A stretch of 64,000 bases of DNA from Bacteroidota bacterium (GTDB taxonomy: Bacteria > Bacteroidota > Bacteroidia > 2-12-FULL-35-15): the NCBI GenBank assembly GCA_947476185.1, contig CANJPX010000003.1:8707-72706 (forward strand), in the 5' to 3' direction. Within the stretch, counting starts at the first letter, position 1. Each line of letters opens with the position of its first letter. The notes beneath the pieces were generated by a model. The model did no database searches and had not been told where the DNA came from. It worked only from the letters and a program-made list of their open reading frames with translations. The position numbers were made by a program, and so were the translations under genes. Positions 23,779-56,500 of the stretch are shown here, piece after piece.

Positions 23779-24179
23779 TTTTGGAATAGTTTAGAGAGAT
23801 TTTAATATACGAACATAGTTTTAAATATTCAAAAAAACAAGCGTACTACCAAGTTTTAGATAAACACCACTTTTTAAGCGGTGGAATATTTTATTTCCAT
23901 TTTTTTCAAAGATTATTTCCGAGCAATAAGTTGCATTCACATAAATAGAACGTGCAAATTATTTTTAATTTCTAGCAGTTTACTTTTTTCAAGATCAAAT
24001 TAAAGAAATAACAACTTTAACAATGATATGTTAATTACTTTATCATAAGCACAGAAAACACCCGTTTATGTTTTATAGCTTTATGGCGAAACTAAACCGC
24101 TTTTCTCCACATATTCCTGTTTAGGGAAATATTGAAAATGTATAGTTTGTCGAATATCAACCTAAAAATTGCTCTGTTT

Positions 24180-36347: not shown

Positions 36348-36355
36348 CAAAGGTA
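36348..36355 (-). promoter_or_regulatory. candidate -7 promoter box (TACCTTTG) for the 1399-aa gene
   Basis: Exact TAnnTTTG match on the minus strand, 30 nt upstream of the ATG at 36318. Confidence 0.4.
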
Positions 36356-39739: not shown

Positions 39740-39780
39740 TTTATTCTATGTGAAGTGAAATTAAAGTTATGCAATAATAC

Positions 39781-39831
39781 AATAAAAACAAAAACGGTAT
39801 CAAGACCTAAAAATAGTTTTGATATCGTTTT
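39781..39831 (-). terminator. weak hairpin / possible leaky terminator after the anti-sigma-like gene
   Basis: aaaacggtatcaagac (39791..39806) / gttttgatatcgtttt (39816..39831). On the minus-strand RNA the stem has two A-C mismatches and is followed by TGTTTTTATT. Confidence 0.3.
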
Positions 39832-40016
39832 GTTAAACACCTATTGGAGTACCAATAAATCTCAAAATATTTTTAAAAAATTGGAAACACCGGCAACAAA
39901 AATCATGCATGTAGTGGTGGTAGAGCTAAAAACAGGATTAATATTTTTGAATTTTTTTGCCTGACGTTGGATCATGCAAATACAAATTCTTCCCGATGCC
40001 CCAATCTTTTTTGTTT

Positions 40017-40973
40017 TTATCTTGTTAAATTAATCTTTCCTTCTTGTTTATATTTTTTCCCATCAGCACCAATCGCAGAAATTATATATAAATAAGTTCC
40101 CTCTTTTGCTTTTTCACCTTTCATATTTTTTCCATCCCACTTTCCATCAATTCCTTTGTAATCATAAACAATATTTCCCTTTTTATCATAAATGGTTGCA
40201 CTCATGTTCACAATGTTTTTACTCTGAAATGCAAAAAGGTCATTTACTCCATCATCATTCGGTGAGAATTCTCTCTGATTTGAGTAAATAGAAGAGTTAC
40301 TAAATGCTTCAACCCTTAAGCTATCAATGGCTGTTTTCCCATCTGCCCCAGTAGAAGTAAGCGTAATGGTATAAATTCCGGGTTCATCAAAATATTTTAC
40401 AGGATTAGCCCCGGCCATTGGTTTAGTACCATCATTGAACGTCCATTTGTTTATTTTACCATTACCTATATTAGAAAGATTGATTATCAAAGGAACTGCA
40501 CCGCCAACACAACTTGAAGAAATAGAGGCAATCCGTTCATCTGACAATAATGCTTCGATCGCTTTTTTATCCTTTTTAATTGTTACTGCAACTTTTGTAT
40601 CAATTGATTCTGTCGCGTTCTTAACAACAGGGGTTTCTTTTGTAGTATTTGAAAGGAAATTTTTTATTTCATCTACTGTAGGTTTTGGCGTTTCTAAAAT
40701 TACAATCGGTTCAGTCTTCGCTTTTGTCACTTTAGTACCATTCTTATTATCTGTTCCGTTCATAACAAAAACAGTTGTAAGCACTGCGGCGGCAGAAGAC
40801 ACAACTGCAATAATCGCATTTGAACCTATTTTGTTAAGTAGCATTTTAGCAATAACGCCCAACCCGACACCCTTCAGACCTGTTTGGATATTTTTCCAAA
40901 CACTCGGACTAACCTCTGCTTCAAAGTTTTCGAAAGAATCTTTGAAAAAATCTTCTAAATTGTTTTTCTTCAT
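40017..40973 (-). CDS. single-pass membrane, anti-sigma-like protein with PKD module and T9SS type B C-terminal domain
   Basis: 318 aa. Its start lies 5 nt after the sigma-factor stop. It has a polar N-terminus MKKNNLEDFFKDSFENFEAEVSPSVWKNIQTGLKG, hydrophobic AIIAVVSSAAAVLTTVFVM, a K/T/E-rich linker and PKD-like WTFNDGT..GIYTITLTS. The C-terminal FSPNDDGVNDLFAF...WDGKNMKGEKAKEGTYLYIISAIG...INLTR aligns with the CTDs of the giant proteins. Confidence 0.75.
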   Translation of the reverse strand: MKKNNLEDFFKDSFENFEAEVSPSVWKNIQTGLKGVGLGVIAKMLLNKIGSNAIIAVVSSAAAVLTTVFVMNGTDNKNGTKVTKAKTEPIVILETPKPTVDEIKNFLSNTTKETPVVKNATESIDTKVAVTIKKDKKAIEALLSDERIASISSSCVGGAVPLIINLSNIGNGKINKWTFNDGTKPMAGANPVKYFDEPGIYTITLTSTGADGKTAIDSLRVEAFSNSSIYSNQREFSPNDDGVNDLFAFQSKNIVNMSATIYDKKGNIVYDYKGIDGKWDGKNMKGEKAKEGTYLYIISAIGADGKKYKQEGKINLTR

Positions 40974-40978
40974 TTTAA

Positions 40979-41506
40979 TTACCTGTCTATTGGTATAATT
41001 TTCTGTAAATATGCTTTTGCTCTTGAGTACTGTGATTTGGAGGTGCCTTCCGAAATATTAAGCATTTCCCCAATCTCCTTATGTGAATAACCTTCAATGG
41101 CATAAAGGTTAAAAACTGTTTTAAATCCAAGAGGCAGCGTTTGTATTATCTTTAATAAATCTTTCGCTGCAAAATTGTCATTAATATATGTATTAGATGG
41201 AAGCATGAACTCAACGCTATCCAGCTCAATGTTTTGTTTTAATTTTTTATTCTTACGAATATTGGTAAGCGCTGTATTTACCATTATTTTTCTTACCCAC
41301 CCCTCCAAAGAACCTGTACCCTTAAATGACCCTATGTTTTCAAAAACACTTATAAAACCATTTTGTACTACATCCTCCGCTTCCTCCGTGCTATCGCAAT
41401 ATCGAAGGCAAACACCCATCATTTTACGAGCAAATTTTTCGTATAAGTTCTTCTGAGCAATTGCATTCTTTTCGATGCACCCTTTTACTATTTGCTCATC
41501 AGTCAT
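40979..41506 (-). CDS. RNA polymerase ECF-type sigma-70 factor
   Basis: 175 aa from MTDEQIVKG (ATG at 41506). It has region 2 (AEDVVQNGFISVFENIGSF) and a region 4 HTH (FNLYAIEGYSHKEIGEMLNISEGTSKSQYSRAKAYLQ). The longer track ORF, reaching 41719, overlaps rnr and is not credible. Confidence 0.88.
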   Translation of the reverse strand: MTDEQIVKGCIEKNAIAQKNLYEKFARKMMGVCLRYCDSTEEAEDVVQNGFISVFENIGSFKGTGSLEGWVRKIMVNTALTNIRKNKKLKQNIELDSVEFMLPSNTYINDNFAAKDLLKIIQTLPLGFKTVFNLYAIEGYSHKEIGEMLNISEGTSKSQYSRAKAYLQKIIPIDR

Positions 41507-41622
41507 ATTCGATTTCTGTTGTGTAGATGCAAAGTTGCAATATTTGGTTGCACGAAGAAAAATTTTTTTAGATTTTATCAACAAATCACTATTTATCCAT
41601 AAATCAATAGCACTTTTGGTGT

Positions 41623-44046
41623 ATGGCAAAGAAGTATAGTAGCAAACCAGAAGGGAAAAAAAAGAGTTTTTTTTTCGAAGAGATACTAAAAGTATTGTCT
41701 TCAAACAGAAATAAATCACTCAATTACAAGCAGATAGCTTCGGAACTCCATATTACAGATTTTGCTCAACGACAAATTATCAATGTTGTTTTAGAGGAAT
41801 TAAAAAACAAAGGCCTGGTTCAAGAGCCTGAACGAGGAAAATTTATTATAAAAAGTGTTGAGATGTTCATTACCGGCAAAGTGGATATGACATCTTCAGG
41901 CAACGCTTATATTATTTCGGAAGAAACGGAAGAAGATGTTGTTGTTGCGCCTAAAAAGACACTCAATGCAATGCATGGTGATATTGTTAAGGTGCGGATA
42001 TTCCCAAAGGGCAAGGGAAAACAGGAAGGTGAAATAGTTGAAGTACTTGAAAGAGCTAAAATAAAATTTGTTGGAACAATTCAAATCTCTCCTCGTTTTG
42101 CTTTTCTTGTGCCAAGCAATAACAAGGTCCATGTCGATATTTACATTCCTCTTGACAAGTTAAATCGCGCTAAAAACGGGCAAAAAGCAATTGCCAAGAT
42201 CACTGAATGGCCAAAAAATGGGGTGAATCCTATTGGAGAAATTATTGAAGTGCTTGGTGACGTAGGGGAAAACAACACAGAAATGCATGCCATTCTTGCT
42301 GAATTTGGCTTGCCATACGAGTTTCCAAAGGATGTAGAACGGTCGGCAGATCTTATTCCTATTAAGATAACTGCAGAAGAGATTTCTAAAAGGCGTGATT
42401 TCCGAGATATAACAACATTTACCATCGACCCTGTTGATGCAAAAGATTTTGATGATGCTTTATCGATACAAAAATTAAAAAACGGAAACTGGGAAATAGG
42501 CGTTCACATTGCTGATGTAAGCCATTATGTAAAACCTTCCTCCATGATCGACCAGGAAGCAATTTCACGCGCTACCTCCGTTTACCTTGTTGACAGAGTT
42601 GTTCCAATGCTTCCGGAAGTTTTATCAAACAACGTTTGTTCTCTTCGCCCACACGAAGAAAAATTATGTTTCTCGGCCGTTTTTGAAATGACCGATGATG
42701 CAGAAGTTGTTGCGGAGTGGTTTGGCAGGACCATCATCAATTCTGACAGACGCTTTACATATGAAGAAGCCCAGCTGGTGATCGAAACTGAAGAAGGCGA
42801 TTTCTGTGATGAAATTCTGACACTAGATAAATTATCAAAAACATTAAGAGCCAATCGTTTTAAAAAAGGTAGTATCGCATTTGAAAAACTGGAAGTTAAA
42901 TTTCATCTTGATGAGAATGGAAATCCTACCGGTGTATTTTTCAAGACAGCAAAAGATTCTAATCAGTTGATCGAAGATTTTATGCTTCTTGCTAATAGAA
43001 AAGTAGCGGAATTTGTAGGTAAGAAGAAACAAGAGCCAAGAACAAAGGGTCAAGAGCCTAAAGAAAATAGCAAAGAGTCCCAAAGGCCTTTTGTATATCG
43101 GATTCACGACAAACCTAATCCGGATAAACTTGCAAACTTTTCGGAGTTTGTTGCAAAATTCGGGTATAAATTAAATGTAAAAAACATCAATACAGTTGCC
43201 GATTCTTTAAATAATTTACTGAAAGAAGTGAATGAGAAAAAGGAATCAGGGATGATCGAGATGCTTGCAATACGTACTATGGCGAAAGCGGTTTATACTA
43301 CAAAAAATATCGGCCATTACGGATTGGGTTTTGATTATTATACTCACTTTACTTCACCAATACGCAGATATCCTGATGTGATGGTACATCGATTACTACA
43401 ACATTATTTGGATGGCGGCAAAAACCCTGATATCGATAAATTGGAAGAACAGTGCAAACACTCTTCCGAAATGGAAAAACTTGCAGCTGATGCGGAGCGG
43501 GCTTCCATTAAATACAAACAGGTCCAATATTTAACAGATAAAATAGGTCAGGAATTTGATGGTGTCATTTCGGGTGTAACAGAGTGGGGGATTTTTGTGG
43601 AGATCATCGAAAATCATTGCGAAGGAATGGTTCGTTTGCGCGAATTGCGTGATGACAATTATTATTTTGATGAAGATAATTATTGTTTACGTGGCAGAAA
43701 ATTTGGAAAAGTATTAACGCTTGGCGATACTGTTAGAATAGAAATAAAGCGTGCCGACCTTGTTAAGAAACAACTGGATTTTGCATTGGTAGAAGTGTTT
43801 GAAGAAACAAATAAGAATCAAGAATCAAGACACAAGAATCAAGACAAAGGACAAAACAGCAAACTTTCAAAACGCGAACAACACAAAGCGAAAAATAAAA
43901 ACTTTAAAGAGGAAATGAAATCCGCAACTGAGCGAAATTCACAAAATAAAAAACCGCTGGACTCAGAGGTTGCAAAGCCTGAAAATAAACGACAAAAACC
44001 TTCTACCGGAAATCCGTTTGTTGATGAATGGGGGTTTGAGGTTTAA
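41623..44046 (+). CDS. rnr: ribonuclease R
   Basis: 807 aa. It has an N-terminal HTH-like region, cold-shock domains, and RNB catalytic blocks FTIDPVDAKDFDDALS and HYGLGFDYYTHFTSPIRRYPDVMVHR. It also has an S1 domain (GVISGVTEWGIFVEI) and a Lys/Gln/Asn-rich tail. Confidence 0.93.
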   Translation: MAKKYSSKPEGKKKSFFFEEILKVLSSNRNKSLNYKQIASELHITDFAQRQIINVVLEELKNKGLVQEPERGKFIIKSVEMFITGKVDMTSSGNAYIISEETEEDVVVAPKKTLNAMHGDIVKVRIFPKGKGKQEGEIVEVLERAKIKFVGTIQISPRFAFLVPSNNKVHVDIYIPLDKLNRAKNGQKAIAKITEWPKNGVNPIGEIIEVLGDVGENNTEMHAILAEFGLPYEFPKDVERSADLIPIKITAEEISKRRDFRDITTFTIDPVDAKDFDDALSIQKLKNGNWEIGVHIADVSHYVKPSSMIDQEAISRATSVYLVDRVVPMLPEVLSNNVCSLRPHEEKLCFSAVFEMTDDAEVVAEWFGRTIINSDRRFTYEEAQLVIETEEGDFCDEILTLDKLSKTLRANRFKKGSIAFEKLEVKFHLDENGNPTGVFFKTAKDSNQLIEDFMLLANRKVAEFVGKKKQEPRTKGQEPKENSKESQRPFVYRIHDKPNPDKLANFSEFVAKFGYKLNVKNINTVADSLNNLLKEVNEKKESGMIEMLAIRTMAKAVYTTKNIGHYGLGFDYYTHFTSPIRRYPDVMVHRLLQHYLDGGKNPDIDKLEEQCKHSSEMEKLAADAERASIKYKQVQYLTDKIGQEFDGVISGVTEWGIFVEIIENHCEGMVRLRELRDDNYYFDEDNYCLRGRKFGKVLTLGDTVRIEIKRADLVKKQLDFALVEVFEETNKNQESRHKNQDKGQNSKLSKREQHKAKNKNFKEEMKSATERNSQNKKPLDSEVAKPENKRQKPSTGNPFVDEWGFEV

Positions 44047-44180: not shown

Positions 44181-44933
44181 TTAGATCATATTCAATCTTT
44201 TTGCAAGGTCATCTTTATAAGAACCACCGATCGGAATTAATTTTTTGTCTTCTTCCAAAATTAAATTCGGTTGTTCGATAGCAACGATCTTATCGATACG
44301 CACAATAAAAGAGCGGTGAACACGGATAAAATCACTTGCTGGTAATTTTTTCTCGATATCCTTCATCGTAGAGTGGATCGTATATCTGGCACTGTTGGTA
44401 TTAATTACTACATAATCTTTTAGTGCCTCAACAAAAAAAATATCGCTGGTCTTTACCTTCACCAAACGAGAATTTGATTTCACAAAAATGATATCTTTCG
44501 ATTCTTTATTTTCAACAATAGAATATAAGAAATCTCTTTCTTTTTTTACATCTGTTTCTTTCTCGTGCTTATAGATGGCCATTTCAATTGACGTATGCAG
44601 ATCAATTTCTTTAAATGGCTTGATGATATAACCGTATGGTTCCGAAACTTTTGCTTTGCTTAAGGTACTTTCATCCGCATAAGCGGTAAGGTAAATAATC
44701 GGAATATTAAGTTTTTCGCGAATTTGTCCGGCCGCTTCAATCCCGCTCATGTCGCCTTTTAACATGATATCCATTAGCACAAGATCCGGTTTTAATTCTT
44801 CCGCAACCTTGATCGCATCTTCACCTGTTGAACACATTCCAACTACAGTATATCCAAGTTTTTTGAGGCTATGTTGAATGTCTTTGGCAACAATGCTTTC
44901 GTCTTCAACTATTAGAATGTTTGTTTTTGACAT
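44181..44933 (-). CDS. LytR/AlgR-family response regulator (receiver + LytTR DNA-binding domain)
   Basis: 250 aa. The receiver has DLVLMDIML and a conserved K (IIKPF). The C-terminal LytTR block is FIRVHRSFIVRIDKI. Confidence 0.9.
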   Translation of the reverse strand: MSKTNILIVEDESIVAKDIQHSLKKLGYTVVGMCSTGEDAIKVAEELKPDLVLMDIMLKGDMSGIEAAGQIREKLNIPIIYLTAYADESTLSKAKVSEPYGYIIKPFKEIDLHTSIEMAIYKHEKETDVKKERDFLYSIVENKESKDIIFVKSNSRLVKVKTSDIFFVEALKDYVVINTNSARYTIHSTMKDIEKKLPASDFIRVHRSFIVRIDKIVAIEQPNLILEEDKKLIPIGGSYKDDLAKRLNMI

Positions 44934-44934
44934 T

Positions 44935-47900
44935 TTATATTCGGTTTTTTATTTGATTTTGTTTAAACTTAATGCGATAGTTTGTTCCTTTTTCAACATT
45001 CAATTCTATTGTTCCACTCAACTGATCGGTCAAAGTAACGACTAATTGCAATCCAAGCGATTCTGTGTTTCTGAAATCAAGATCTGCAGGCAACCCTTTA
45101 CCATTATCTCCGATATTTAATACAAGGTCATCCTCAACAACTTGCATCTTAATGGTTATCTCTCCATCCCGACTGTTTTCGACAAAAGCGTACTTTAATG
45201 CGTTAGAAACTATTTCATTAATGATTAACCCGCAAGGAATTGCCAGGTCTAAATTAAGAAAAACATTTTGAATGTCAAGGTTTAATTTAATTTCATTGTC
45301 AAAATTCGAATACGAGTGAATCAAATTTTGTGAAAGATTTACAACATATTCGGTAAAATTAATGCTTGAAAAGTCTTTTGTTTGGTATAAACTTTCGTGA
45401 ATAAAGGCCATTGACTTGATCCTATTCTGGCTTTCTTTTAAAATATCAAGTGTCGCTTCATCTTTCACATAAGAAGATTGAAGGTTCAGTATACTTGAGA
45501 TCACCTGTAAATTATTTTTTACACGATGGTGAACCTCTTTTAATAGTATTTCTTTCTCTTGTAAGGATTGGCGTATGCGTTCTTCCGATATCTTTTTCTC
45601 TGTAACATCGTGGCCTATGCCGGAAACTTCCAGAACCTGTCCGGAATCATCAGATATAGGATTTAAATAAATTTCACTCCAACTTTCATTTCCATTTTTT
45701 TCGATGAATTGAGTTTCAAAATATTGCGGCTCACCGGCAAATGCTTTTTCATATTTTTTTATCCAAAAATTATTATGCTCCTGGGATGAAACAGAGTCTC
45801 CGGAGATCATCGATAATCCAACTTTCGCACGAATCCCATATCTGTTCATCAATTGTTTGTCGTAATTATGGTTATAGGTAGTCAGACAAATGTTTTTGTC
45901 AACAGTCCAAATAACGTGGGAGCTACTTTCGATAATTGCATTAAATTTTGCCGATTGAGAGCGTAACGTTTCATCTGCTTTCTTCAATTGTGAGATGTCC
46001 CTAGAAACACCCATTGCACCGATCACTTCTCCTTCATCATTTTTTAGAATAGAGGCAGACAAATAGGCAACGAATTTTTCTCCATTTTTTCTGATATTGG
46101 TTACCTCTCCCGCATATACCCCTTTTTTATATAACTCTTCATCGGTAATTTTTATCCTCTCGTTTGGATCCTCGTATAGCATGCTCACGTGTTTCCCTAA
46201 TACTTCACTAGCTGTGTACCCAAATGTATTTTGTGCTGCCTGATTAAATTCTGTTATCAACCCTTTACGATCAGACGCGCAAATCATGTCGATAGAACCG
46301 TTGATAATTAAACGGGTATATTTTTGAGATTCTAATAACTTTAATTGTATTACTTTCCTTGTGGTAATTTCTTGCTCCAACAATGCATTGGTTTCTTCGG
46401 CCATTTGAGCTCTTAACTGCTCTTTGGCAAGTTGTTTTTCTATTCCGATCTTATGCATTGTTACCTGAATAGCTTCGATTCCATCGTATCTAACGTGTTC
46501 GGCCTGTAATTCTAACTCCACCATATTCCCTTTTGCCGTTTTTACTGTCGTCACTCTGAAAGTGCGAGACTCCAGAGGATAGTTGGCCTGCATACGCCCC
46601 TTCACCTCCTCATGAAATTCGGGATGAATGAAATCCAAAACTGTTTTGTTTTTCAGGTCTTCATACGAATTTATTTCTACTATACTAAATGCACTTGGGT
46701 TAGCAAATGCTATTTTGCCATCGATTGGATTAAATATAAAGATCCCATCAGGAGATTTGTCAACAAGGTTTTTATAGTTTTCTCCGCTTTGTTTCAGTTC
46801 TGATTCGTAACGTTTTTTTTCATCAATATCTAAAACAAAACCTTCCAAAAACAAAAGCTTTCCATCTTCAGAAAAAACACCTTCCCCTTTTTCCAATACC
46901 CACTTTGTTTCACCTGAGGCCATAATTATCCTATATTCAATTTCAAAAGGGCATTTGTTCTTAAACGCTTTCTGAATTTTTTCTTTTAGCAACTGTGCGT
47001 CATCAGGGTGGGTAATATCCGCAAACGACATTTTTTTATTATCTACAACATCTTTTGGGTCGTACCCGGTAAGCTCTTTAAACCCTTTACTAACAAAACG
47101 CATTGTCCAATTTTTATCATTGTCGCAACGATATGCCATTCCCGGAAGGTTATTCATCAAAGTGGAGAGGGCTCGCTCACTTTCTTTTAATATTCTTTCA
47201 GTGTTTTTCCGCTGTGAAATATTATTAAAGATCGTTTGTATTCCCTTTTTTCCCTTGTGGAAAACCAGTTTAGACTTGATCTCAATGTCTAATATCTCAC
47301 CGGCCGGTGTTTTAACCTCAATTTCAAAAAAGTGCAATATTTCACCATTCAATACACGTTTTGCACGATCAGTTATTTCTTTGTGATATTTTGGAAGGAT
47401 GTAATTATGAATGTTCAGGTTAGTAACCTTTTCAATATTTTTCTCCTTTATACCGAAAATTTCAAAAGCCGCCTTGTTAGCAAAAACAACAACAAAGTCA
47501 ACATAAATTATTACACCACTTGGAATTTCCTGTAAAAAGTGAATGTGGCTTTCTTCGCCTTCTCTTGATTTCTCTTCGCTTAATTTTTGTGCTGTGATAT
47601 CTCTTGAGATCCCTTCAATAGCTACCATGCGTTTATTGTCATCAAACACAGGTTTACTCCGTGTTTCCGTCCAAATGATGCTGCCGTCTTTTTTGATCCA
47701 CCTGACAATAATTTCCGGGCCCTTGATATTGCTGACCTTTGCTTTGCTTTTTAATAATTTTTCTGACTCACCCAGCAAAGGGACATCATCCGGGTGAATA
47801 ATTTTGAATCCTAAAAAAGGGTCTTTATAAAAATCTTCCGCTGAGTAGCCGGTAATGTCTTTCACAGAGGGGCTAACATATTCATACCGAACTTCAGGAA

Positions 47901-48813
47901 AAACGCTACACCTATATATCAGGTCAGTCGCATTTTCTGCAAGCATTCTGAATTTCTCTTCACTTTCCTTTATCTTCTTTTCGTTTACTTTAAACTTGCT
48001 AATGTCGCGGATAGAAGTAACGCGGGCCGGTTCTCCTTTATAAATAATTTCAGTGCCTAATAATTCTGCCCAAAACGCTTTCTTTCCTTTGCGAAGCATT
48101 TGAACTTCATAGGGGGTTTCAATTTTGTTTTTTACATTCTCAAAAACGATCTTATGAAAATCGGGGTGAATAAATTTTAAAATAGGTTGATTTATCAGCT
48201 CTTTATCCGTGTATTGAAATGTTTTTCGCAGTGCGTTGTTTACTTCAACCACTTTCCCTTCCTTATGGATTGCAATACCTTCAAAAGCTGAATCGGAAAG
48301 TTTTTTAAACTTTTCTTCACTATTCTCCAGTGCTTTTTTTGTTAATATAACCTCAGTAATATCAATGATATCAACAATCGCGGCAACCACTTTTTTATTT
48401 TCAAAATGCGGGGTTACCCTTGAAGAATAAAATGCTTTTTGTCCCTTTTTGCCTAGACCGGAAATTTCATATTGTTGATACTTGCCTTTAGTAAAAACAA
48501 TATTCAGCGCCTTCTTAACAACAGAGTGGTATTCTTTCTCAATAAATTTATAGGCAGACTGTCCAATTATTTTATCCCTGTTGGCGCTATTAATGAGATC
48601 GTTATTGTCAATAATGCAGCCTTTTTTGTCAAGAACTAAAATGGTGTGTTCAGAATTTTTGAAATACGAATCCCATTTGGAATCCTTTGTTGAAGAGATT
48701 TTTTTTTCTTTGTCCGCAATCGTTTTCTTTTTTTGTTCCAACAAACCAACCTTCCTCTGAAGTTTTTTCACTTCAGAAATTAATTGGTCCTTTGATTTTT
48801 TTGAGAGCGTCAT
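44935..48813 (-). CDS. soluble multi-PAS sensor histidine kinase (HisKA_2 + HATPase_c)
   Basis: 1292 aa with no TM segments. It has an N-terminal coiled coil, roughly eight PAS/PAC modules, the H-box HHRVKNNLQVISSILNLQ (HisKA_2 type), N-box INEIVSNALKYAF and G-box GDNGKGLP. Its stop lies 1 nt before the regulator start. Confidence 0.88.
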   Translation of the reverse strand: MTLSKKSKDQLISEVKKLQRKVGLLEQKKKTIADKEKKISSTKDSKWDSYFKNSEHTILVLDKKGCIIDNNDLINSANRDKIIGQSAYKFIEKEYHSVVKKALNIVFTKGKYQQYEISGLGKKGQKAFYSSRVTPHFENKKVVAAIVDIIDITEVILTKKALENSEEKFKKLSDSAFEGIAIHKEGKVVEVNNALRKTFQYTDKELINQPILKFIHPDFHKIVFENVKNKIETPYEVQMLRKGKKAFWAELLGTEIIYKGEPARVTSIRDISKFKVNEKKIKESEEKFRMLAENATDLIYRCSVFPEVRYEYVSPSVKDITGYSAEDFYKDPFLGFKIIHPDDVPLLGESEKLLKSKAKVSNIKGPEIIVRWIKKDGSIIWTETRSKPVFDDNKRMVAIEGISRDITAQKLSEEKSREGEESHIHFLQEIPSGVIIYVDFVVVFANKAAFEIFGIKEKNIEKVTNLNIHNYILPKYHKEITDRAKRVLNGEILHFFEIEVKTPAGEILDIEIKSKLVFHKGKKGIQTIFNNISQRKNTERILKESERALSTLMNNLPGMAYRCDNDKNWTMRFVSKGFKELTGYDPKDVVDNKKMSFADITHPDDAQLLKEKIQKAFKNKCPFEIEYRIIMASGETKWVLEKGEGVFSEDGKLLFLEGFVLDIDEKKRYESELKQSGENYKNLVDKSPDGIFIFNPIDGKIAFANPSAFSIVEINSYEDLKNKTVLDFIHPEFHEEVKGRMQANYPLESRTFRVTTVKTAKGNMVELELQAEHVRYDGIEAIQVTMHKIGIEKQLAKEQLRAQMAEETNALLEQEITTRKVIQLKLLESQKYTRLIINGSIDMICASDRKGLITEFNQAAQNTFGYTASEVLGKHVSMLYEDPNERIKITDEELYKKGVYAGEVTNIRKNGEKFVAYLSASILKNDEGEVIGAMGVSRDISQLKKADETLRSQSAKFNAIIESSSHVIWTVDKNICLTTYNHNYDKQLMNRYGIRAKVGLSMISGDSVSSQEHNNFWIKKYEKAFAGEPQYFETQFIEKNGNESWSEIYLNPISDDSGQVLEVSGIGHDVTEKKISEERIRQSLQEKEILLKEVHHRVKNNLQVISSILNLQSSYVKDEATLDILKESQNRIKSMAFIHESLYQTKDFSSINFTEYVVNLSQNLIHSYSNFDNEIKLNLDIQNVFLNLDLAIPCGLIINEIVSNALKYAFVENSRDGEITIKMQVVEDDLVLNIGDNGKGLPADLDFRNTESLGLQLVVTLTDQLSGTIELNVEKGTNYRIKFKQNQIKNRI

Positions 48814-50521: not shown

Positions 50522-52489
50522 TTATTCTTTGTTGGAAGAAAACGTTGAAATAGCAATGATCTGGATCTTTCGTTCCAAAGCAGCCGCAGGATTATAGATC
50601 GAGTTTTTTGTGTCGTAATAGTCGTCACTCACATTTGGCCGGGCCTTTAGCTCGCCGATGTCTTCGTTAAAAAATGTGATCTTGCCTTCTGCGGGATTCG
50701 GATTGTCAATATACTTTACAAGAATGCCGCCTTGATATTCGATAAAATAATTCCTTAAACTTGAGATTCTTCTTTTTGCAAGATTTACGTTATAATCTGT
50801 GGAAGCAAGCGGGCTGCAATAACCTTTCATGGTAATTGTCACTTTTTCGTTATCCTTTAACACCTTTACTAAAAGCTGTGCAAATTTATCCAGATCCTGC
50901 ATTCCTGCATCAACAGAGTCTTCAAACAGGTTATCAATGTCGCCATAAGACCTTTCAATATCATCACCCTTTGCTCCTTTGGAATATTCCTTTTTATACA
51001 ACTCGTGCATAGCAGAATAATCTTCATATGTTTTTCTGTAATTTTTTGTTGTCGTGATGGCAAGTGTTTTTTTGTCCGGCTCGTCATTATGAAAATACAA
51101 CGTCAGGGGCACAAGCAATTTCATCTGGGTAACGAAAACTTGTGTGCTATCAACTTTTTTAGGTGGTTCTTCAATTTTGGGAAGTTTCACCATATAAATA
51201 TCATTGCAGCAACTTTCTTTTTCTTCGAAGAAAGAACCTGTGCGATTAGAGGAAATAAATGCTTCTGTTTTTTTTGAATTGATAGAAAAATAAATGTCGT
51301 TGAAATTACTGTTGAATGGCAATCCCAAATTTTTAGGTTCTCCTAATTCGTTATTCTTAAAATCACTTTTAAATATGTCGAAGCCACCCAATCCTTTGTG
51401 CCAATTGGAACTAAAAAATAATTCCTGACAAGGTTTGCAATAATACGGAGTGATCTCATCATCAATGGAATTAACCTTTTTTCCTGCATTTATTGATTTG
51501 CCATACGATCCGTCCTTATTAATTTTGCTGTACCAAATATCCATTTTACCTTCTCCCCCGGGACGATTTGATGCGAAGAACAACACCTCTTCTTCTCCCA
51601 AAAATCCGATCGCAGGTTGTGTATTTGTATAATTTTTGACATTTATTTCCGGAGGTAATTTCTGCAAAGCACTCCATTGGCCGTTCTTAAATTCAGAAGA
51701 ATAAATTTCACAATTAAAATCCATTGAATTTTTTTGAACACATCGTGTAATAAAAACTTTTGTAAAATCCGCATTAAACGCTGTATTGGCATTATGAACA
51801 CCCTGATGATTAAAAAGTGTATCTAGCTCAACAACCTTTTTCCATTTTACAGAATCCTGAATTGAAGTATAAATTTTATTGTAATTAACGCTGTGTTTTT
51901 TATCACGATCTTTTCCATCACGCAAGGAAGAAAAATATAAAAGGCTGTCTACTTGTATTGGTGCATATTCTGATACTTTACTATTTACGGTACTATCCAG
52001 ATGTATGATGTTAACACTTTTATCCGGACTTGCCATCAGCAATTGAGCGAAGTCACAAGCAGCAACTTCCTGAATTGCCTTTTTCACAAAATAACTGTCC
52101 TTCTTTTTTTTGTTCTTCTTAGCATATTTATCGAACATCTTTTTTGCATCCTTATAATTCCCTCTGTTCTTCTTGATTGTCGCTAACCAAAAAGAGCATT
52201 CCGGATAAAGTTTTCCCATCGCATCTTTCTTGATCACCTTGGAATACCAATGTTCTGCAATAGCATAATCAAAGTTTAAACGACTTGCTTCTGCATATTT
52301 GTATTGAAGAACGATATCGCTGGAATCCTGGAGGATGGCTTTATTGTAGTATGCTGCGGCAGAAAAAAAATCGTTATCAGCGAATGCTTTGTCACCATCC
52401 GCAAGAAGCGTTTTTGTTTTTTGAGCGAAAATGGAAGAGCCAAGACAAAAGAAATATGCAACAAGAACACAAAGAGTTTTTGCATTCAT
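50522..52489 (-). CDS. OmpA-like domain protein with N-terminal TPR and TolB-like repeats
   Basis: 655 aa from MNAKTLCVLVAYFFCLGSSIFAQ (ATG at 52489). It has a TPR-like N-terminal region, WD40-like 'PD40' units (SEYAPIQVDSLLYFSSLR, ..LFFASNRPGGEG) and a C-terminal OmpA-like block GYCSPLASTDYNVNLAKRRISSLRNYF. Confidence 0.7.
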   Translation of the reverse strand: MNAKTLCVLVAYFFCLGSSIFAQKTKTLLADGDKAFADNDFFSAAAYYNKAILQDSSDIVLQYKYAEASRLNFDYAIAEHWYSKVIKKDAMGKLYPECSFWLATIKKNRGNYKDAKKMFDKYAKKNKKKKDSYFVKKAIQEVAACDFAQLLMASPDKSVNIIHLDSTVNSKVSEYAPIQVDSLLYFSSLRDGKDRDKKHSVNYNKIYTSIQDSVKWKKVVELDTLFNHQGVHNANTAFNADFTKVFITRCVQKNSMDFNCEIYSSEFKNGQWSALQKLPPEINVKNYTNTQPAIGFLGEEEVLFFASNRPGGEGKMDIWYSKINKDGSYGKSINAGKKVNSIDDEITPYYCKPCQELFFSSNWHKGLGGFDIFKSDFKNNELGEPKNLGLPFNSNFNDIYFSINSKKTEAFISSNRTGSFFEEKESCCNDIYMVKLPKIEEPPKKVDSTQVFVTQMKLLVPLTLYFHNDEPDKKTLAITTTKNYRKTYEDYSAMHELYKKEYSKGAKGDDIERSYGDIDNLFEDSVDAGMQDLDKFAQLLVKVLKDNEKVTITMKGYCSPLASTDYNVNLAKRRISSLRNYFIEYQGGILVKYIDNPNPAEGKITFFNEDIGELKARPNVSDDYYDTKNSIYNPAAALERKIQIIAISTFSSNKE

Positions 52490-52528
52490 AAAACGGTTTC
52501 CTATAGTTTGTTTATCACATTTCATAAA

Positions 52529-53545
52529 CTACATATAAATTGGGCAAACTCGTTTTTTGGCAACAAATGGGGCGACTTTTTTAAGAATGTAGATCACGGA
52601 AATTTCAAAACCTCCTCTGTGATTTGTTGCTGCAATCAGCTTTGACATATTAACATCGTAACTCACTCCCACATTAAAACTTCTATAATCCATATTCGCC
52701 ACCAAAATAAATGCATCTTTCATGCGATAGAACCCTCCGAGAGAAACAGCGGTTGTCATTCCATCCACAGGTCTCAAATGGTATTTTCCAAAAAGACCGA
52801 AAACGGTTTCCTGAAATTTTCCCTGACGTTGATATAACACTGTTGGCAAAACATCTAATTGTCCGGAAACAGGAAATTCTGCTATCCCGCTAATGGACGT
52901 TTTTACATCCAAACGAATTCCATCATTGTTGAAGAAGGACTGTTTTGGCTTGTTCATATGTAAAGCAGACACGCCAATATTTACAAGCGTACGATTATTT
53001 TTTCTCCAAAGGTAGGCCAAGCCTCCACCAAGATCGAGGTAGGTAATTCTTGTTTTTGGAAAATTTTCACCACTTGGTAAGGAAGCATTATAACTATCCC
53101 CATCATATTGATTGTCGAATGTTAATGCAGCAACGTTAAAACTTTTTGAGGTTATTCCAGGCTGAAACCCAACAGATATAAAATGAGTGGAATCTTTGTT
53201 TAATTTTTTTATGTATGCTCCCGAAACAAAAATTTGCGTTGTTGTAAATTTCGAGTCTCCCGATTTATCAGTATTTATAACCAACCCAACAGCCGGGGCG
53301 TCATTTTCTAATTTCGTTTTCAGGCGGGTGTCTGTTGCCAAAGAAAAAGTTCTGTAGGGAACAGGGATCACCGACCATTGACTTCTGAAATTTCCAACAA
53401 ACCTCCAGTCTCCATCAAACAAGCCTGTTTGAGCAGGATTAAGATTTTGTGGCGAAGCGTTGAATTGGGAATAATGAATGTCCTGAGCATGAATAAATTT
53501 CACACTAAAGACAATTAAAAATAATATGATCTTATTTTTTTTCAT
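52529..53545 (-). CDS. type IX secretion system membrane protein, PorP/SprF family
   Basis: 338 aa with a signal peptide then QDIHYSQFNASPQNLNPAQTG, the family's N-terminal signature. It looks like a beta-barrel with alternating hydrophobicity. It lies 7 nt downstream of a type B cargo gene. Confidence 0.85.
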   Translation of the reverse strand: MKKNKIILFLIVFSVKFIHAQDIHYSQFNASPQNLNPAQTGLFDGDWRFVGNFRSQWSVIPVPYRTFSLATDTRLKTKLENDAPAVGLVINTDKSGDSKFTTTQIFVSGAYIKKLNKDSTHFISVGFQPGITSKSFNVAALTFDNQYDGDSYNASLPSGENFPKTRITYLDLGGGLAYLWRKNNRTLVNIGVSALHMNKPKQSFFNNDGIRLDVKTSISGIAEFPVSGQLDVLPTVLYQRQGKFQETVFGLFGKYHLRPVDGMTTAVSLGGFYRMKDAFILVANMDYRSFNVGVSYDVNMSKLIAATNHRGGFEISVIYILKKVAPFVAKKRVCPIYM

Positions 53546-53552
53546 TCTTCTT

Positions 53553-56500
53553 TTATCTGATCAACGTTGTATTTCCCTGCTTTTTCAGTTCATCACCATT
53601 ATAGCATTTCGCTGTTAAATACCAGGCAAATACAGCCGGATCAGCTTTCATACCCTTATAAACTCCATCCCAACCAACATTTTGATCTTTTGTTTCAAAA
53701 ACCAATTCGCCCCAACGGTTATAAACTGCGAAATATAATTCGGAGATCATATTACCTCTTACGTATAAAATATCATTTTGACCGTCATTATTTGGCGTAA
53801 AAGTATTTGGAACAAAAACATCGGCGGGATTGCATTTCATCGATAACACATAAATTGTTATTGTTGCTGTTTTCGGACAACCGGATGAATCTATTACAGT
53901 CAATGTATATGTTGTTGTGCTTGTCGGAGAAGCTGTTGGGTTGAATGAAGTGGGATCGCTTAATCCGGTTGAAGGGCTCCACAAGATCGTTAAAGTGGGG
54001 TCCGTGATCGCATGAATAATTGTTGAAGTTCCTTCAAAAATACTGTCCGCATCCGCTGAGGCAGAAATAGGGAATAGTGCAGGGTCAATAACTGTAACTG
54101 TTGTAGACAATGTCACAATACAAGTATCACCTAAAGAATTCACGGTTGAAATATTCACGGTATAGGTGGTTGTAGCTATAGGACTTGCAACAGGATTAGA
54201 AATAGTTGCGTTATTTAAACTCGATGAGGGTGACCAGCTGTATGCAAAACCTCCTGTGGCCAATAAGGGCGCGCTTCCACCATCGCAAATTATTGTATTC
54301 GGATTTATTGTTGCGCCTCCGGAATTGTCAAAGCTGACTGAAGTTGTATCAGCACACCCATTCGCAGTAGTTGCAATTAAAGTTACCACATAGTTTCCTG
54401 ATGAAGGATAAGAATGATTTGGATTTGGAAGTATGGAGGTGGCTCCATCACCAAAATCCCATTGCCATGAAGTCGGACTTGTTGCCGAGGAATCCGTTAA
54501 GGAAATGTTGTTTGAGCAAGGCGGACTTGCCAGGCCAAAATCTGCAGTGATACCTGGATAAACAGTTATTATTGTGAAGGCTGTATCTGAAATTTTACAA
54601 GCATTATTATATAAAATCAAAGTAACAGTATACGTTCCGGGTGTTGGAAAAACGTGTGTGGGATTATAGATCAACGAAGTAGTGTCTCCTCCCCCAAAAT
54701 CCCAAAGATAGGTGCCAAACGCAGAACTTTGATTGCTGAAGGTAACAGAAAAGGGAGCGCAGCCCGATGCTGTATCAATTGTAAAATCAGCATTTACGGG
54801 AGGTACTTGAAAATCAAATTTAAATGTTCCGTTATTACAATTAGTAGCGTGATTTACGTTAGCGCCTGTATTCGGCCAGGACCCTGGTGTTACGGGAAAA
54901 TCATCGTTTCCACCACACCCTGCGCAAACGGATTGGTAAATTATTCCTTTTTTATCAAATCGGCTGGTGCCTCCATCCACGTGCTCCCAGCTGGTTGCAC
55001 CACCAAAATAAGTAGCATACACGAGAGAAGATGCATCAGCAGAAAGTACAATCAAATAAAAATTGTGACCATCTGTAATCGGCTGGATAGCGTCAGCTGT
55101 CAATGGCATTCCAGTGGTGTTTGTAACAGGAGGCACAATCTTTCCACCCCAACCGGAGACATAAATATTCTTACAATCGTCCACCAAAAAGGCAGATGGA
55201 GATATGTTTGGCGTTCCGCTGCCATTACCAAAAACAGTTGAAAAACCAAGCGTGGTAAGCTTTGAGTTCATTCTTGTGATAAACTGTCCGCTGTTCGCAT
55301 TGTTGTATACACCAGTCGTAACAGGCATCAACCCTTCTGTTTGGCCCACAACATAAATATTGCTATCCTTATCGATCTGAATAAAATAGCATTGGTCGTA
55401 GGCCGGTGTTCCCCAATAAGTAGATGCAAGAAGTACTGTTCCGTCCTTTTTTATTTTTGCAATATAACCATCCGCTTTCCCTCCTTGATAGGTTGTGTGA
55501 AGAACTCCCGGCGTTGAAGGAAAATTGTTGCTTCGTGTTCCTCCAGTTATATAGACATTTAATGAATCGTCAAGAGCCAGAGCATATCCGGCATCATTAT
55601 CAGTGCCACCCAAATAAGTGCTCCACAGCAATACAGAAAAATCTGGGTTAAATTTAAAGGCGACCGCATCCTGTTCTCCTCCCATTGTGTTGTCGAAACC
55701 ATTCACTATCGGAAAATTACCAGATCTGGTAGAACTAGCAATATACGCGTTTCCTGCAGCATCAACATTGATCTCACCACGATATTGGTCACCATAATTA
55801 TATTGTAAAGAGTCGGCCGGAAACTCATAGGTGGTTCCCGAAAAAAGCACACTGTCATTGTTCACATTTACTCCATCATTCATTGTCCCTCCGATAAATG
55901 TTGAAGCCATTAATGTGGTTCCGGTCGGATTAAATTTTGCAACATAGATATCCGTTCCGTTATCGAAAAAAGATCCATTATAGATAAAATGAAGCAATAT
56001 TCCACCGTTAAATGTTGTGTCGTAAGCGGTGGGTGTAACAGGAAAATCAGATGACCCCGTTGCTCCGTAAAGCAAAAGATTTTCTGAATTATCAACAACC
56101 AGACTGGTAACAATTTCTGTTCCGTTAGCGCCTCCGATATAAGTAGAGTATTGCAAAAACGTTCCTGAAGAATCATATTTTGTAATTACCACATCTGTTA
56201 TTCCGTAAGCTGGTGCCCCATTGAAGGTCACATCATATGCACCAAGCGTTGTTGGAAAACCGATATCGAAACACGTTCCTCCGGAATAAAGATCGCCATC
56301 CGAATCGTATGTTGCAGTCATTCCAAAATTATCTGCTGTTGACCCCGAAGAACAAGCAAACACAAGGATCGGGTCAATAACCAGTTCCACATTTTTGTTA
56401 TATCCATCAGGAAAGCGGAAGGTAACAGTATTGTTTTTCAAAACAAATTCACAAGGCACCTCCACCTCGTATCCGTCAATAAATTGATAGGCATAAGGCT

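What the first reader, a model, noticed from the sequence alone, without database searches (positions are those of the whole stretch)
40017..41506. ECF sigma factor paired with an anti-sigma-like membrane protein that ends in a T9SS type B sorting domain: possible secretion-coupled checkpoint for adjacent adhesins
**Seen in the sequence.**
- The sigma gene (40979..41506) stops 5 nt before a 318-aa ORF.
- That ORF has a polar ~33-aa N-terminus, FFKDSFENFEAEVSPSVWKNI. From memory, this is a pattern common in proteins following Bacteroidota ECF sigmas.
- It has a hydrophobic anchor (AIIAVVSSAAAVLTTVFVM) rather than an obvious cleavable signal peptide.
- It continues with a K/T/E-rich linker and a PKD-like module.
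- Its C-terminus, FSPNDDGVNDLFAF…WDGKNMKGEKAKEGTYLYIISAIG…INLTR, aligns block for block with the type B (CHU_C) sorting domains of the three giant proteins in this window.

**Inference.**
- The topology is that of a single-pass anti-sigma factor, yet the periplasmic end carries an outer-membrane export signal.
- Engagement or cleavage of that CTD by an active T9SS could extract or destabilise the protein and release the sigma factor.
- That would couple transcription to secretion competence, analogous to FlgM export in flagellar assembly.
- The next two same-strand genes are 1100-aa and 1399-aa type B cargo. Unlike the cargo at 53553..57116, they have no PorP/SprF partner beside them.

**Caveats.**
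- A hairpin (39781..39831) and a 277-bp spacer separate the pair from the adhesins.
- Both adhesin genes have housekeeping-type -7 boxes (near-match TAACTTTA at 39762..39769, exact TACCTTTG at 36348..36355).
- I could not recognise an ECF-type promoter, so the regulatory link rests on adjacency only.
Basis: partly seen in the sequence, partly recalled or inferred. Interest (0 to 1): 0.7.

Follow-up and report, generated by a model that had tools for sequence, protein, structure and literature searches.

The report
Anti-sigma factor carrying T9SS sorting domain
A conserved two-gene switch in uncultured Bacteroidota pairs a small sigma factor with a membrane-anchored partner whose outer end is a type IX secretion sorting signal, so the cell may read its secretion machinery directly, but nothing ties it to the neighbouring adhesin genes.

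Summary
40979..41506(-) encodes an ECF sigma factor. Five nucleotides downstream, 40017..40973(-) encodes a 318-aa protein with four parts: a conserved 45-aa N-terminal module, one hydrophobic span at residues 53-71, a roughly 75-aa disordered tether, and a PKD domain plus a type B (CHU_C) T9SS domain.

The architecture is not a one-off:
- A profile of the N-terminus alone finds 383 cluster representatives.
- 90 of 98 distant ones end in CHU_C. A few end in an outer-membrane beta-barrel instead.
- A sigma factor of the same group (47-99% identical) lies directly upstream in all 43 distinct loci examined.
- The N-module matches no Pfam, NCBIfam or PDB entry.

I found a conserved ECF-type promoter, TGCAAC-N17-CATCT, in front of the sigma gene. 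It persists in distant loci whose spacers differ.

The proposed link to the adjacent adhesins is not supported:
- No such promoter precedes them in the window or in any of 20 related loci.
- They carry housekeeping -7 boxes behind a conserved hairpin.
- They are absent from 13 of 33 close loci and 8 of 9 distant ones.

Best reading: an autoregulated sigma/anti-sigma pair whose sensor is a tethered T9SS signal. Secretion-coupled release is plausible, given the PorA-PorY precedent, but untested.

The parts
41525..41552 (-). Candidate autoregulated ECF-type promoter TGCAAC-N17-CATCT, ending 19 nt before the sigma ATG
   Evidence: The strict motif is present 6-30 nt upstream of the sigma ATG in the window and in most of the 34 close loci. 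The rest (e.g. L002, L027, L030) keep TGCAAC-N17-(C/T)ATCA. In distant loci L048, L049, L054 and L056 (and as GACAAC in L050) the two boxes and the 17-nt spacing are kept while the spacer sequence differs. It is the only intergenic strict match in the 64-kb window.
40979..41506 (-). ECF sigma factor, 175 aa
   Evidence: Sigma70_r2 2.3e-15, Sigma70_r4_2 5e-13, TIGR02937 1e-25. It falls below the cutoffs of the named Bacteroidota subfamilies. Orthologues are 76-99% identical in L001-L034, and sigmas beside distant partners are 47-58% identical. The closest solved structures are ordinary ECF sigmas.
40839..40973 (-). N-terminal cytoplasmic module (residues 1-45), the putative sigma-binding domain; consensus NIEDLFKDSFENFEAEVxPSVWKNIQ
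   Evidence: F10, F14, F17, E18, W26 and K34 are invariant in 92 sequences. The profile finds 383 representatives. There is no hit in Pfam, NCBIfam or PDB sequences. AF2 predicts helices at 4-15, 23-35 and 38-47 with low confidence.
40761..40817 (-). Single transmembrane anchor (residues 53-71)
   Evidence: KD 2.34. The position is constant (start 53-56) in 92 close members and at residue 41 or later in 98 distant ones. Flanking charge fits N-in topology. S59, S60, T67, M71 and N72 are conserved.
40533..40760 (-). K/T/E-rich periplasmic tether (residues 72-147)
   Evidence: Sequence is poorly conserved but length is kept. pLDDT is below 50 except for two short helices. The distance from the TM end to the CTD is 163-189 aa in the close family and 128-239 aa in distant members.
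40299..40526 (-). PKD-type Ig-like domain (about residues 150-225)
   Evidence: PKD_4 6e-9. AF2 pLDDT is 80-94 and the fold is all-beta. Foldseek returns tandem Ig/FnIII folds.
40020..40277 (-). Type B (CHU_C) T9SS C-terminal domain (residues 233-318)
   Evidence: PF13585 62 bits (cutoff 27). TIGR04131 34.4 bits (cutoff 35). It is 29-40% identical to the cargo CTDs in the window. AF2 pLDDT is about 85-93.
39787..39834 (-). Hairpin plus T-run after the pair (probable operon end)
   Evidence: -13.7 kcal/mol, z = -1.85. A stronger equivalent hairpin followed by TTTTTGTTTTT is conserved in L003, L004, L008, L009, L021, L022 and L024.

Best explanation
**What it is.** This is a self-contained, autoregulated ECF sigma/anti-sigma operon.

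The 318-aa protein is a single-pass inner-membrane anti-sigma factor of a previously uncatalogued type:
- a short cytoplasmic N-module holds the sigma factor;
- one transmembrane helix anchors it;
- a long flexible tether carries a PKD domain and a genuine type B T9SS sorting domain into the periplasm.

**Proposed mechanism.** The sorting domain is most likely the sensory input. It is long-tethered enough to reach the outer-membrane T9SS components that normally bind type B CTDs: PorP/SprF-like barrels or the SprA translocon. Whether it is captured, or left unengaged, then determines the stability of the anti-sigma factor. Because the protein is membrane-anchored, release of the sigma factor would go through regulated proteolysis of the tether and anchor, not through export of the whole protein. 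The freed sigma transcribes its own operon from TGCAAC-N17-CATCT, plus a regulon that lies mostly outside this window.

**Shown:** the domain architecture, its wide conservation, strict sigma linkage, and the conserved promoter.

**Inferred:** sigma binding by the N-module, N-in topology, contact with the T9SS, and proteolytic release.

**Not part of the module on present evidence:** the adjacent adhesin genes.
For: **Sigma linkage.** A sigma gene lies directly upstream, with a 5-nt gap here and overlaps or gaps of 15 nt or less elsewhere, in 34 of 34 close loci and 9 of 9 distant loci. Those sigmas form one group, 47-99% identical, while their partners fall to about 15-25% identity.

**Architecture.** A profile built from the N-terminus only retrieves 383 representatives. 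Of 98 distant ones, 90 carry CHU_C and about 54 carry PKD.

**Anchor.** The hydrophobic span sits at residues 53-71, never at a signal-peptide position. The N-terminus is far more conserved than a signal peptide would be. Met45 is not conserved.

**CTD quality.** It scores as well against PF13585 as true cargo in the same window.

**Tether.** At least 128 residues always separate the TM span from the CTD. AF2 shows a disordered tether and two confident beta-sandwich domains.

**Promoter.** The bipartite motif is conserved with fixed spacing and variable spacer sequence.

**Published precedents.**
- Type B CTDs bind PorP-like outer-membrane barrels and are not cleaved (PMC9143113).
- An ECF-type motif precedes T9SS genes in Flavobacterium psychrophilum (PMC9723704).

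**Variants.** Members with 4-5 tandem N-modules and an outer-membrane beta-barrel C-terminus again pair this sigma group with an outer-membrane-destined domain.
Against: - No direct evidence shows that the N-module binds the sigma factor. It resembles no known anti-sigma domain, and a complex prediction could not be run.
- AF2 confidence for residues 1-50 is low.
- A membrane-anchored protein cannot be a normal T9SS substrate.
- No PorP/SprF gene is next to the pair.
- TIGR04131 falls 0.6 bits below its cutoff.
- The regulon is unknown. In about 800 kb of related sequence the strict motif recurs only at the sigma gene, plus one site upstream of a giant type A cargo in L006.
- The CHU_C fold is a generic beta-sandwich and could have been co-opted for another ligand.
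Confidence: 0.5

Rival explanations
1. A sigma/anti-sigma pair whose PKD-CHU_C region is only a generic periplasmic Ig-like sensor or stability domain, co-opted from cargo. It has no contact with the T9SS, and the signal is some other envelope cue.
For: CHU_C is a plain beta-sandwich, and Foldseek returns only generic tandem Ig/FnIII folds. The protein is membrane-tethered. No PorP/SprF gene is adjacent. TIGR04131 is just under its cutoff. Neighbourhoods of distant pairs show no recurrent T9SS genes.
Against: The domain keeps every conserved block of true cargo CTDs and matches PF13585 as well as they do. It stays strictly C-terminal in 90 of 98 distant relatives. The only alternative C-termini are outer-membrane beta-barrels, which are again outer-membrane-targeted. 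A long tether is always kept. PorA shows that a CTD can signal from the periplasm (PMC12152298).
Confidence: 0.3
2. One reading: the sigma factor drives the two adjacent type B adhesin genes, and the T9SS-sensitive anti-sigma factor acts as their secretion checkpoint.
For: Orthologues of the 1100-aa and/or 1399-aa adhesins follow the pair in 20 of 33 close loci. One distant pair (L056) is also followed by a SprB/PKD/CHU_C cargo. These adhesins lack their own PorP/SprF neighbour.
Against: There is no TGCAAC-N17-nRTCT site upstream of any adhesin gene in the window or in the 20 loci, nor in L056. Conserved sigmaA-type TAnnTTTG boxes and a hairpin plus T-run separate them from the pair. The adhesins are absent in 13 of 33 close loci and 8 of 9 distant loci, while the pair itself is invariant. 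The whole block HK-RR-RNase R-sigma-antisigma-(adhesins)-ppx-ppk is syntenic in this lineage, so adjacency carries little weight.
Confidence: 0.1
3. An ordinary small T9SS cargo with an unusually long, conserved extended signal peptide (as in some autotransporters) that is cleaved. The sigma gene is merely a neighbour.
For: The protein has PKD plus CHU_C like other cargo. A small-residue run, SSAAA, lies inside the hydrophobic span.
Against: The N-module is found next to the same ECF sigma group in 43 of 43 loci with tight coupling. Other CHU_C cargo in the window use normal signal peptides. The N-module occurs as 4-5 tandem repeats in some variants. The hydrophobic span starts at residue 41 or later in all 190 members, and no A-x-A site follows it.
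Confidence: 0.05

Closest known systems
PorA - PorXY - SigP pathway of Porphyromonas gingivalis (PMC7712824, PMC12152298)
   Same: A T9SS C-terminal sorting domain doubles as a periplasmic signal that ends in activation of an ECF sigma factor. Inner-membrane-tethered PorA still signals.
   Different: PorA is a free type A cargo that binds a separate histidine kinase, PorY, and SigP is reached through PorX. Here a type B CTD is fused in one polypeptide to the putative anti-sigma factor. No two-component step is implied, and the sigma factor is not SigP by the NCBIfam cutoffs.
FecR/FecI-type trans-envelope signalling (and SusC-linked ECF/anti-sigma pairs of Bacteroidota)
   Same: A single-pass inner-membrane anti-sigma factor whose periplasmic part reaches an outer-membrane barrel protein. 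The sigma factor is released by proteolysis, and the operon is autoregulated.
   Different: There is no FecR domain and no TonB-dependent transducer. The N-terminal sigma-binding region is about 45 aa and unrelated to FecR_N. The periplasmic end is a secretion signal rather than a receptor-binding domain.
FlgM - sigma28 flagellar checkpoint
   Same: Conceptually, activity of a secretion machine is read through a secretion signal carried by the anti-sigma factor.
   Different: FlgM is soluble and is exported whole through the flagellar T3SS. This protein is membrane-anchored, so it cannot leave without cleavage. There is no sequence relationship.
RsgI - SigI systems of cellulolytic clostridia
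   Same: A membrane anti-sigma factor with modular extracytoplasmic sensor domains borrowed from the secreted proteins it relates to.
   Different: That is a Gram-positive system whose sensors are carbohydrate-binding modules. The N-terminal domain family (RsgI_N) is different.
Type B CTD cargo such as SprB and PG1035, with PorP/SprF partners (PMC9143113)
   Same: The same C-terminal domain family (PF13585/TIGR04131), preceded by a PKD domain.
   Different: This protein lacks a cleavable N-terminal signal peptide and an adjacent PorP/SprF gene. It is small (318 aa) and is always coupled to an ECF sigma gene.

Membership tests
ECF (group 4) sigma-70 factors | Only regions sigma2 and sigma4 are present, about 170-200 aa | tested here: met
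   Sigma70_r2 2.3e-15, Sigma70_r4_2 5e-13, TIGR02937 90.3 bits against a cutoff of 42.9; 175 aa
ECF (group 4) sigma-70 factors | Autoregulated promoter with an AAC-containing -35 box and a CGT-like -10 box at fixed spacing | tested here: met
   TGCAAC-N17-C(A/G)TCT is conserved upstream of the sigma gene in close and distant loci. Function was not tested.
Named Bacteroidota ECF subfamilies (sigma_PG0214/GFO_1088 NF058625; Sig70_bacteroi1 TIGR02985) | Score above the curated cutoff | tested here: not met
   74.8 bits against 130, and 84.5 bits against 126.4
Membrane-bound anti-sigma factor | Gene immediately downstream of, and coupled to, the ECF sigma gene | tested here: met
   5-nt gap here. 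Adjacent in 34 of 34 close and 9 of 9 distant loci.
Membrane-bound anti-sigma factor | Single TM span with a cytoplasmic N-terminus | tested here: inconclusive
   There is one hydrophobic span at 53-71 (KD 2.34). The net charge of the flanks favours N-in. No dedicated topology predictor or experiment was available.
Membrane-bound anti-sigma factor | Recognisable anti-sigma domain (zf-HC2/RsrA-like class I, class II, FecR_N, RskA and similar) | tested here: not met
   No Pfam or NCBIfam hit even at E = 10. No PDB sequence hit.
Membrane-bound anti-sigma factor | Physical binding and inhibition of the cognate sigma factor | not testable with these tools
T9SS type B CTD cargo | C-terminal CHU_C/TIGR04131 domain | tested here: met
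   PF13585 62 bits (cutoff 27). TIGR04131 34.4 bits (cutoff 35, marginally below). 29-40% identity to cargo CTDs.
T9SS type B CTD cargo | Cleavable N-terminal Sec signal peptide giving a soluble periplasmic intermediate | tested here: not met
   The hydrophobic span begins at residue 53, after a conserved polar module. Cargo in the window have signal peptides at residues 1-22. SignalP was not available.
T9SS type B CTD cargo | Cognate PorP/SprF-like gene nearby | tested here: not met
   The only PorP_SprF gene in the window (52529..53545) sits beside the 1187-aa cargo. None was seen next to the pair in the distant loci.
T9SS type B CTD cargo | T9SS-dependent surface localisation | not testable with these tools
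   Needs experiment

The most novel reading that the evidence does not exclude
The family is a built-in reporter-substrate sensor. An anti-sigma factor displays a decoy T9SS type B sorting signal on a periplasm-spanning tether, or in sister variants an outer-membrane beta-barrel. Capture or non-capture by the outer-membrane secretion or assembly machinery then directly sets the activity of a dedicated ECF sigma factor. That would be a one-polypeptide trans-envelope pathway for monitoring T9SS capacity, widespread in environmental Bacteroidota and using an uncatalogued 35-45-aa sigma-binding module.
Probability: 0.3. Interest if true: 0.8.

Novelty: new variant of a known kind. Interest (0 to 1): 0.6.

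Why it matters
How Bacteroidota sense the state of their type IX secretion and gliding apparatus is largely unknown outside the PorA-PorXY-SigP pathway of P. gingivalis.

A widespread anti-sigma factor that physically carries a T9SS sorting signal would give a simple, genetically tractable handle on that question. Delete the CTD, or the T9SS or PorP-like genes, and read a reporter on the TGCAAC-N17-CATCT promoter.

It also does three other things:
- It defines an uncatalogued short anti-sigma module and its ECF group.
- It cautions that proteins annotated as "gliding motility-associated C-terminal domain" proteins are not all cargo.
- The negative result matters too. The neighbouring giant adhesins should not be assumed to be its regulon.

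Tried and rejected
**Internal start at Met45 giving a normal signal peptide.** Rejected. Met45 is not conserved, and residues 1-44 are the best-conserved part of the protein.

**ECF promoter upstream of the adhesins.** Searched with strict and loose patterns in the window and in 45 loci. None was found.

**Second regulon member upstream of the 2257-aa type A cargo.**
- There is an exact N17 match in L006 and an N15 variant in the window.
- It is absent upstream of three more distant homologues, L059-L061.
- It is left as a weak lead.

**Homologous-protein searches.**
- An N-terminal alignment and P0147 both timed out.
- A 40-aa consensus found no candidates.
- As a result, the taxonomy of the distant relatives and their presence in cultured model species remain unknown.

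**Foldseek against the PDB.** It gave only generic tandem Ig/FnIII matches, with PorU on top, and was not discriminating.

**The F. psychrophilum SM6-linked anti-sigma factor THC0290_1773.** At 149 aa it is too short to be a member of this architecture.

**ECF-classification paper.** No supplement was held, so the ECF group number could not be assigned.
Full report
**1. What is in the sequence**

On the minus strand, 40979..41506 encodes a 175-aa protein with sigma-70 regions 2 and 4 only: Sigma70_r2 2.3e-15, Sigma70_r4_2 5e-13, TIGR02937 1e-25. It does not reach the curated cutoffs of the named Bacteroidota ECF subfamilies (NF058625 at 74.8 of 130 bits; TIGR02985 at 84.5 of 126.4 bits). Its stop codon is followed by 5 nt and then the ATG of a 318-aa ORF at 40017..40973.

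That ORF matches CHU_C (PF13585) at 6e-17 over residues 235-314 and PKD_4 at 6e-9. It scores 34.4 bits against TIGR04131, whose cutoff is 35. Its PF13585 score of 62 bits lies within the range of the three bona fide type B cargo proteins of the window (54.1, 65.4 and 69.5 bits). Its last 90 residues align with theirs at 29-40% identity.

**2. Signal peptide or anchor**

The only strongly hydrophobic stretch is residues 53-71, with a Kyte-Doolittle mean of 2.34. The four T9SS cargo proteins in the window have ordinary signal peptides starting at residue 1-4.

In 92 close and 98 distant family members the hydrophobic span never starts before residue 41. Its flanks have a net charge pattern compatible with a cytoplasmic N-terminus.

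Residues 1-50 are the most conserved part of the protein, with F10, F14, F17, E18, W26, K34 and K48 invariant in 92 sequences. Met45 is not conserved, which rules out a mis-called start.

AlphaFold2 with a 92-sequence alignment gives the following:
- confident PKD and CTD beta-sandwiches (pLDDT 80-94);
- a disordered tether;
- low-confidence helices at 4-15, 23-35 and 38-47.

I could not run SignalP or DeepTMHMM, so the anchor is well supported but not proven.

**3. How general the architecture is**

The full-length protein has at least 190 full-length relatives of about 320 aa at 41-80% identity. All come from uncultured Bacteroidota/Bacteroidia.

A profile made from the first 75 residues only, searched against 1.84 billion cluster representatives, returns 383 hits at E of 1e-3 or better. 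About 27 are close; the rest are distant.

Of 98 distant hits of about 200 aa or more (mean column identity 13%), the C-terminal domains are:
- CHU_C in 90;
- PKD in about 54;
- an outer-membrane beta-barrel domain instead in about 5;
- Por_Secre_tail in 1.

Because the query contained no C-terminal sequence, this coupling between the N-module and a type B CTD is a real evolutionary association. Between the anchor and the CTD there are always 128-239 residues.

The beta-barrel variants carry 4-5 tandem copies of the roughly 35-aa N-motif. The N-module has no match in Pfam or NCBIfam even at E = 10, nor in PDB sequences.

**4. Sigma linkage**

In 34 of 34 genome loci with a full-length orthologue, the orthologous sigma gene (76-99% identical) lies immediately upstream. 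In nine distinct distant places an ECF sigma gene again lies directly upstream, overlapping or within 15 nt. These are L048, L049, L050/51, L052/53, L054, L055, L056, L057 and L058, and they include three beta-barrel variants.

Those sigmas are 47-58% identical to the window's sigma, while a second ECF-like gene in L048 is only 33% identical. So one ECF group has co-evolved with this N-module. Together with tight gene coupling and the single-pass layout, this is the classical signature of a sigma/anti-sigma pair.

**5. Promoter**

Aligning the region upstream of the sigma gene shows a block, TGCAACCAAATAATGCAACTTTGCATCT, ending 18-30 nt before the ATG in most loci.

In distant loci the spacer sequence differs but the two boxes and their spacing persist:
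- L048: TGCAAC-N17-CATCT
- L049: TGCAAC-N17-AGTCT
- L054: TGCAAC-N17-AGTCT
- L056: TGCAAC-N17-CATCT
- L050: GACAAC-N17-CATCT

This is the usual shape of an ECF promoter, with AAC in the -35 box and a CGT-like -10 box. It resembles the ECF-type SM6 motif mapped by TSS sequencing in Flavobacterium psychrophilum, where it precedes gldN, porU and an ECF/anti-sigma operon (PMC9723704; examples).

In the window it lies at 41525..41552(-) and is the only intergenic strict match in 64 kb.

**6. Are the adjacent adhesins its targets?**

Three independent lines say there is no evidence for this.

- *Promoter motif.* Across the window and 45 related loci the strict motif occurs upstream of the sigma gene and never upstream of an adhesin gene. 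That includes the 20 loci that carry orthologues of the 1100-aa or 1399-aa proteins and L056, where a distant pair is followed by a 902-aa SprB/PKD/CHU_C protein.
- *Own promoters.* The adhesin upstream regions carry conserved housekeeping -7 boxes (TACCTTTG, TACTTTTG, TAACTTTG, TATCTTTG). They are preceded by a hairpin plus T-run that is conserved after the anti-sigma gene. In the window that hairpin is modest: -13.7 kcal/mol, z = -1.85.
- *Variable presence.* The adhesins are a variable insert. They follow the pair in 20 of 33 close loci with enough downstream DNA. In the other 13 the pair is followed by ppx/ppk, an epimerase, an OMP-uppS-bamA-ompH cluster or unrelated genes. In 8 of 9 distant loci the downstream genes are unrelated or convergent.

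The whole region (PAS kinase - LytTR regulator - RNase R - sigma - anti-sigma - [adhesins] - ppx - ppk) is syntenic in this lineage. Adjacency by itself therefore means little.

**7. A weak lead for a target**

One other intergenic strict match exists in the whole set. It lies 132 nt upstream of the orthologue of the 2257-aa type A CTD protein in L006.

The corresponding window site, 23910..23935(-), reads TGCAAC-N15-AATCT, which is two bases too short. Three more distant homologues of that protein have no such site. This is recorded but not relied on.

**8. Mechanism**

*Shown:* an autoregulated-looking ECF operon, and a partner protein made of a conserved N-module, a TM anchor, a long tether, a PKD domain and a type B CTD. 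This layout is kept over very large evolutionary distances.

*From the literature:*
- Type B CTDs bind PorP/SprF-like outer-membrane barrels and stay uncleaved (PMC9143113).
- A T9SS CTD can act as a periplasmic signalling ligand. [quoted passage not shown]

*Inferred:*
- The CTD of this anti-sigma factor reaches outer-membrane T9SS components. About 75 disordered residues plus a PKD domain is roughly the width of the periplasm.
- Capture or failure of capture changes the stability of the protein.
- Because of the anchor, sigma release would require site-1 and site-2 proteolysis rather than FlgM-like export.

The direction of the signal, whether an idle or a jammed T9SS activates the sigma factor, cannot be decided from sequence.

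The sister variants that end in an outer-membrane beta-barrel fit a broader idea. In that idea, this ECF group monitors delivery of an outer-membrane-destined reporter domain.

The main rival is that the CTD is merely a recycled Ig-like sensor fold with no T9SS contact. The equal PF13585 score, the strict C-terminal position and the conserved long tether argue against it but do not exclude it.

**9. Comparison with known systems and novelty**

In function it is closest to the PorA-PorXY-SigP pathway and to FecR-type trans-envelope anti-sigma factors. In concept only, it resembles FlgM.

It is not a member of any catalogued anti-sigma domain family. It also fails two defining features of T9SS cargo: a cleavable signal peptide and a PorP/SprF neighbour.

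Full-text searches for anti-sigma factors combined with type B CTD or gliding-motility C-terminal domain terms found no description of such a fusion. I therefore rate it a new variant of a known kind, namely ECF sigma/anti-sigma signalling with a new sensor logic and a new N-module.

**10. Verdict**

The adhesin-checkpoint interpretation is not supported. The idea of T9SS-coupled control of the sigma factor remains a reasonable, testable hypothesis (probability about 0.3-0.5).

Interest is 0.6. The system is widespread, previously uncatalogued and directly testable. It is tempered by the PorA precedent and by the absence of any functional or regulon evidence.

Noticed in passing
window 23910..23935 (-); L006 16500..16527: An ECF-like site, TGCAAC-N15-AATCT, lies 132 nt upstream of the 2257-aa type A CTD (Por_Secre_tail) giant protein. 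The orthologous site in L006 has the exact N17 spacing of the sigma promoter. It is absent upstream of three more distant homologues (L059-L061).
   Followed up: partly
window 50522..57116 (-): A classic type B cargo cluster: a 1187-aa DUF7948/SBBP/PKD/CHU_C protein, a PorP/SprF gene (52529..53545, 6.9e-37), and a 667-aa protein with a weak OmpA-family match that may be PorE-like.
   Followed up: partly
P0146, P0216, P0230; loci L052/L053, L055, L058: Sister variants of the anti-sigma-like family carry 4-5 tandem copies of the roughly 35-aa N-terminal motif before the TM span. They end in an outer-membrane beta-barrel domain (OMP_b-brl/OMP_b-brl_2) instead of PKD plus CHU_C. The same ECF sigma group (about 47% identity) lies directly upstream.
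   Followed up: partly
window 41525..41552 (-) and orthologous sites in L001-L034: In the close lineage the promoter spacer is itself conserved. It contains a second TGCAAC and a palindrome, ATGCAA-CT-TTGCAT, overlapping the -10 box. This is not kept in distant loci. It may be an additional regulator site, or only recent common ancestry.
   Followed up: no
window 44181..48813 (-) and 41623..44046 (+): A 1292-aa multi-PAS histidine kinase, a LytTR response regulator (92-98% identical across loci) and a divergently transcribed RNase R are syntenic with the sigma/anti-sigma pair in most related MAGs. No functional link was examined.
   Followed up: no
L033 10001..10766; L026 11142..11390: In L033 the anti-sigma orthologue is interrupted (127 aa, then the match resumes in another frame), which is either a pseudogene or an assembly error. 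In L026 an extra CHU_C-only fragment follows the anti-sigma gene.
   Followed up: no
window 17005..23778 (-): The largest protein of the window carries a type A (Por_Secre_tail) sorting domain, not type B. The window therefore holds both T9SS cargo classes.
   Followed up: yes
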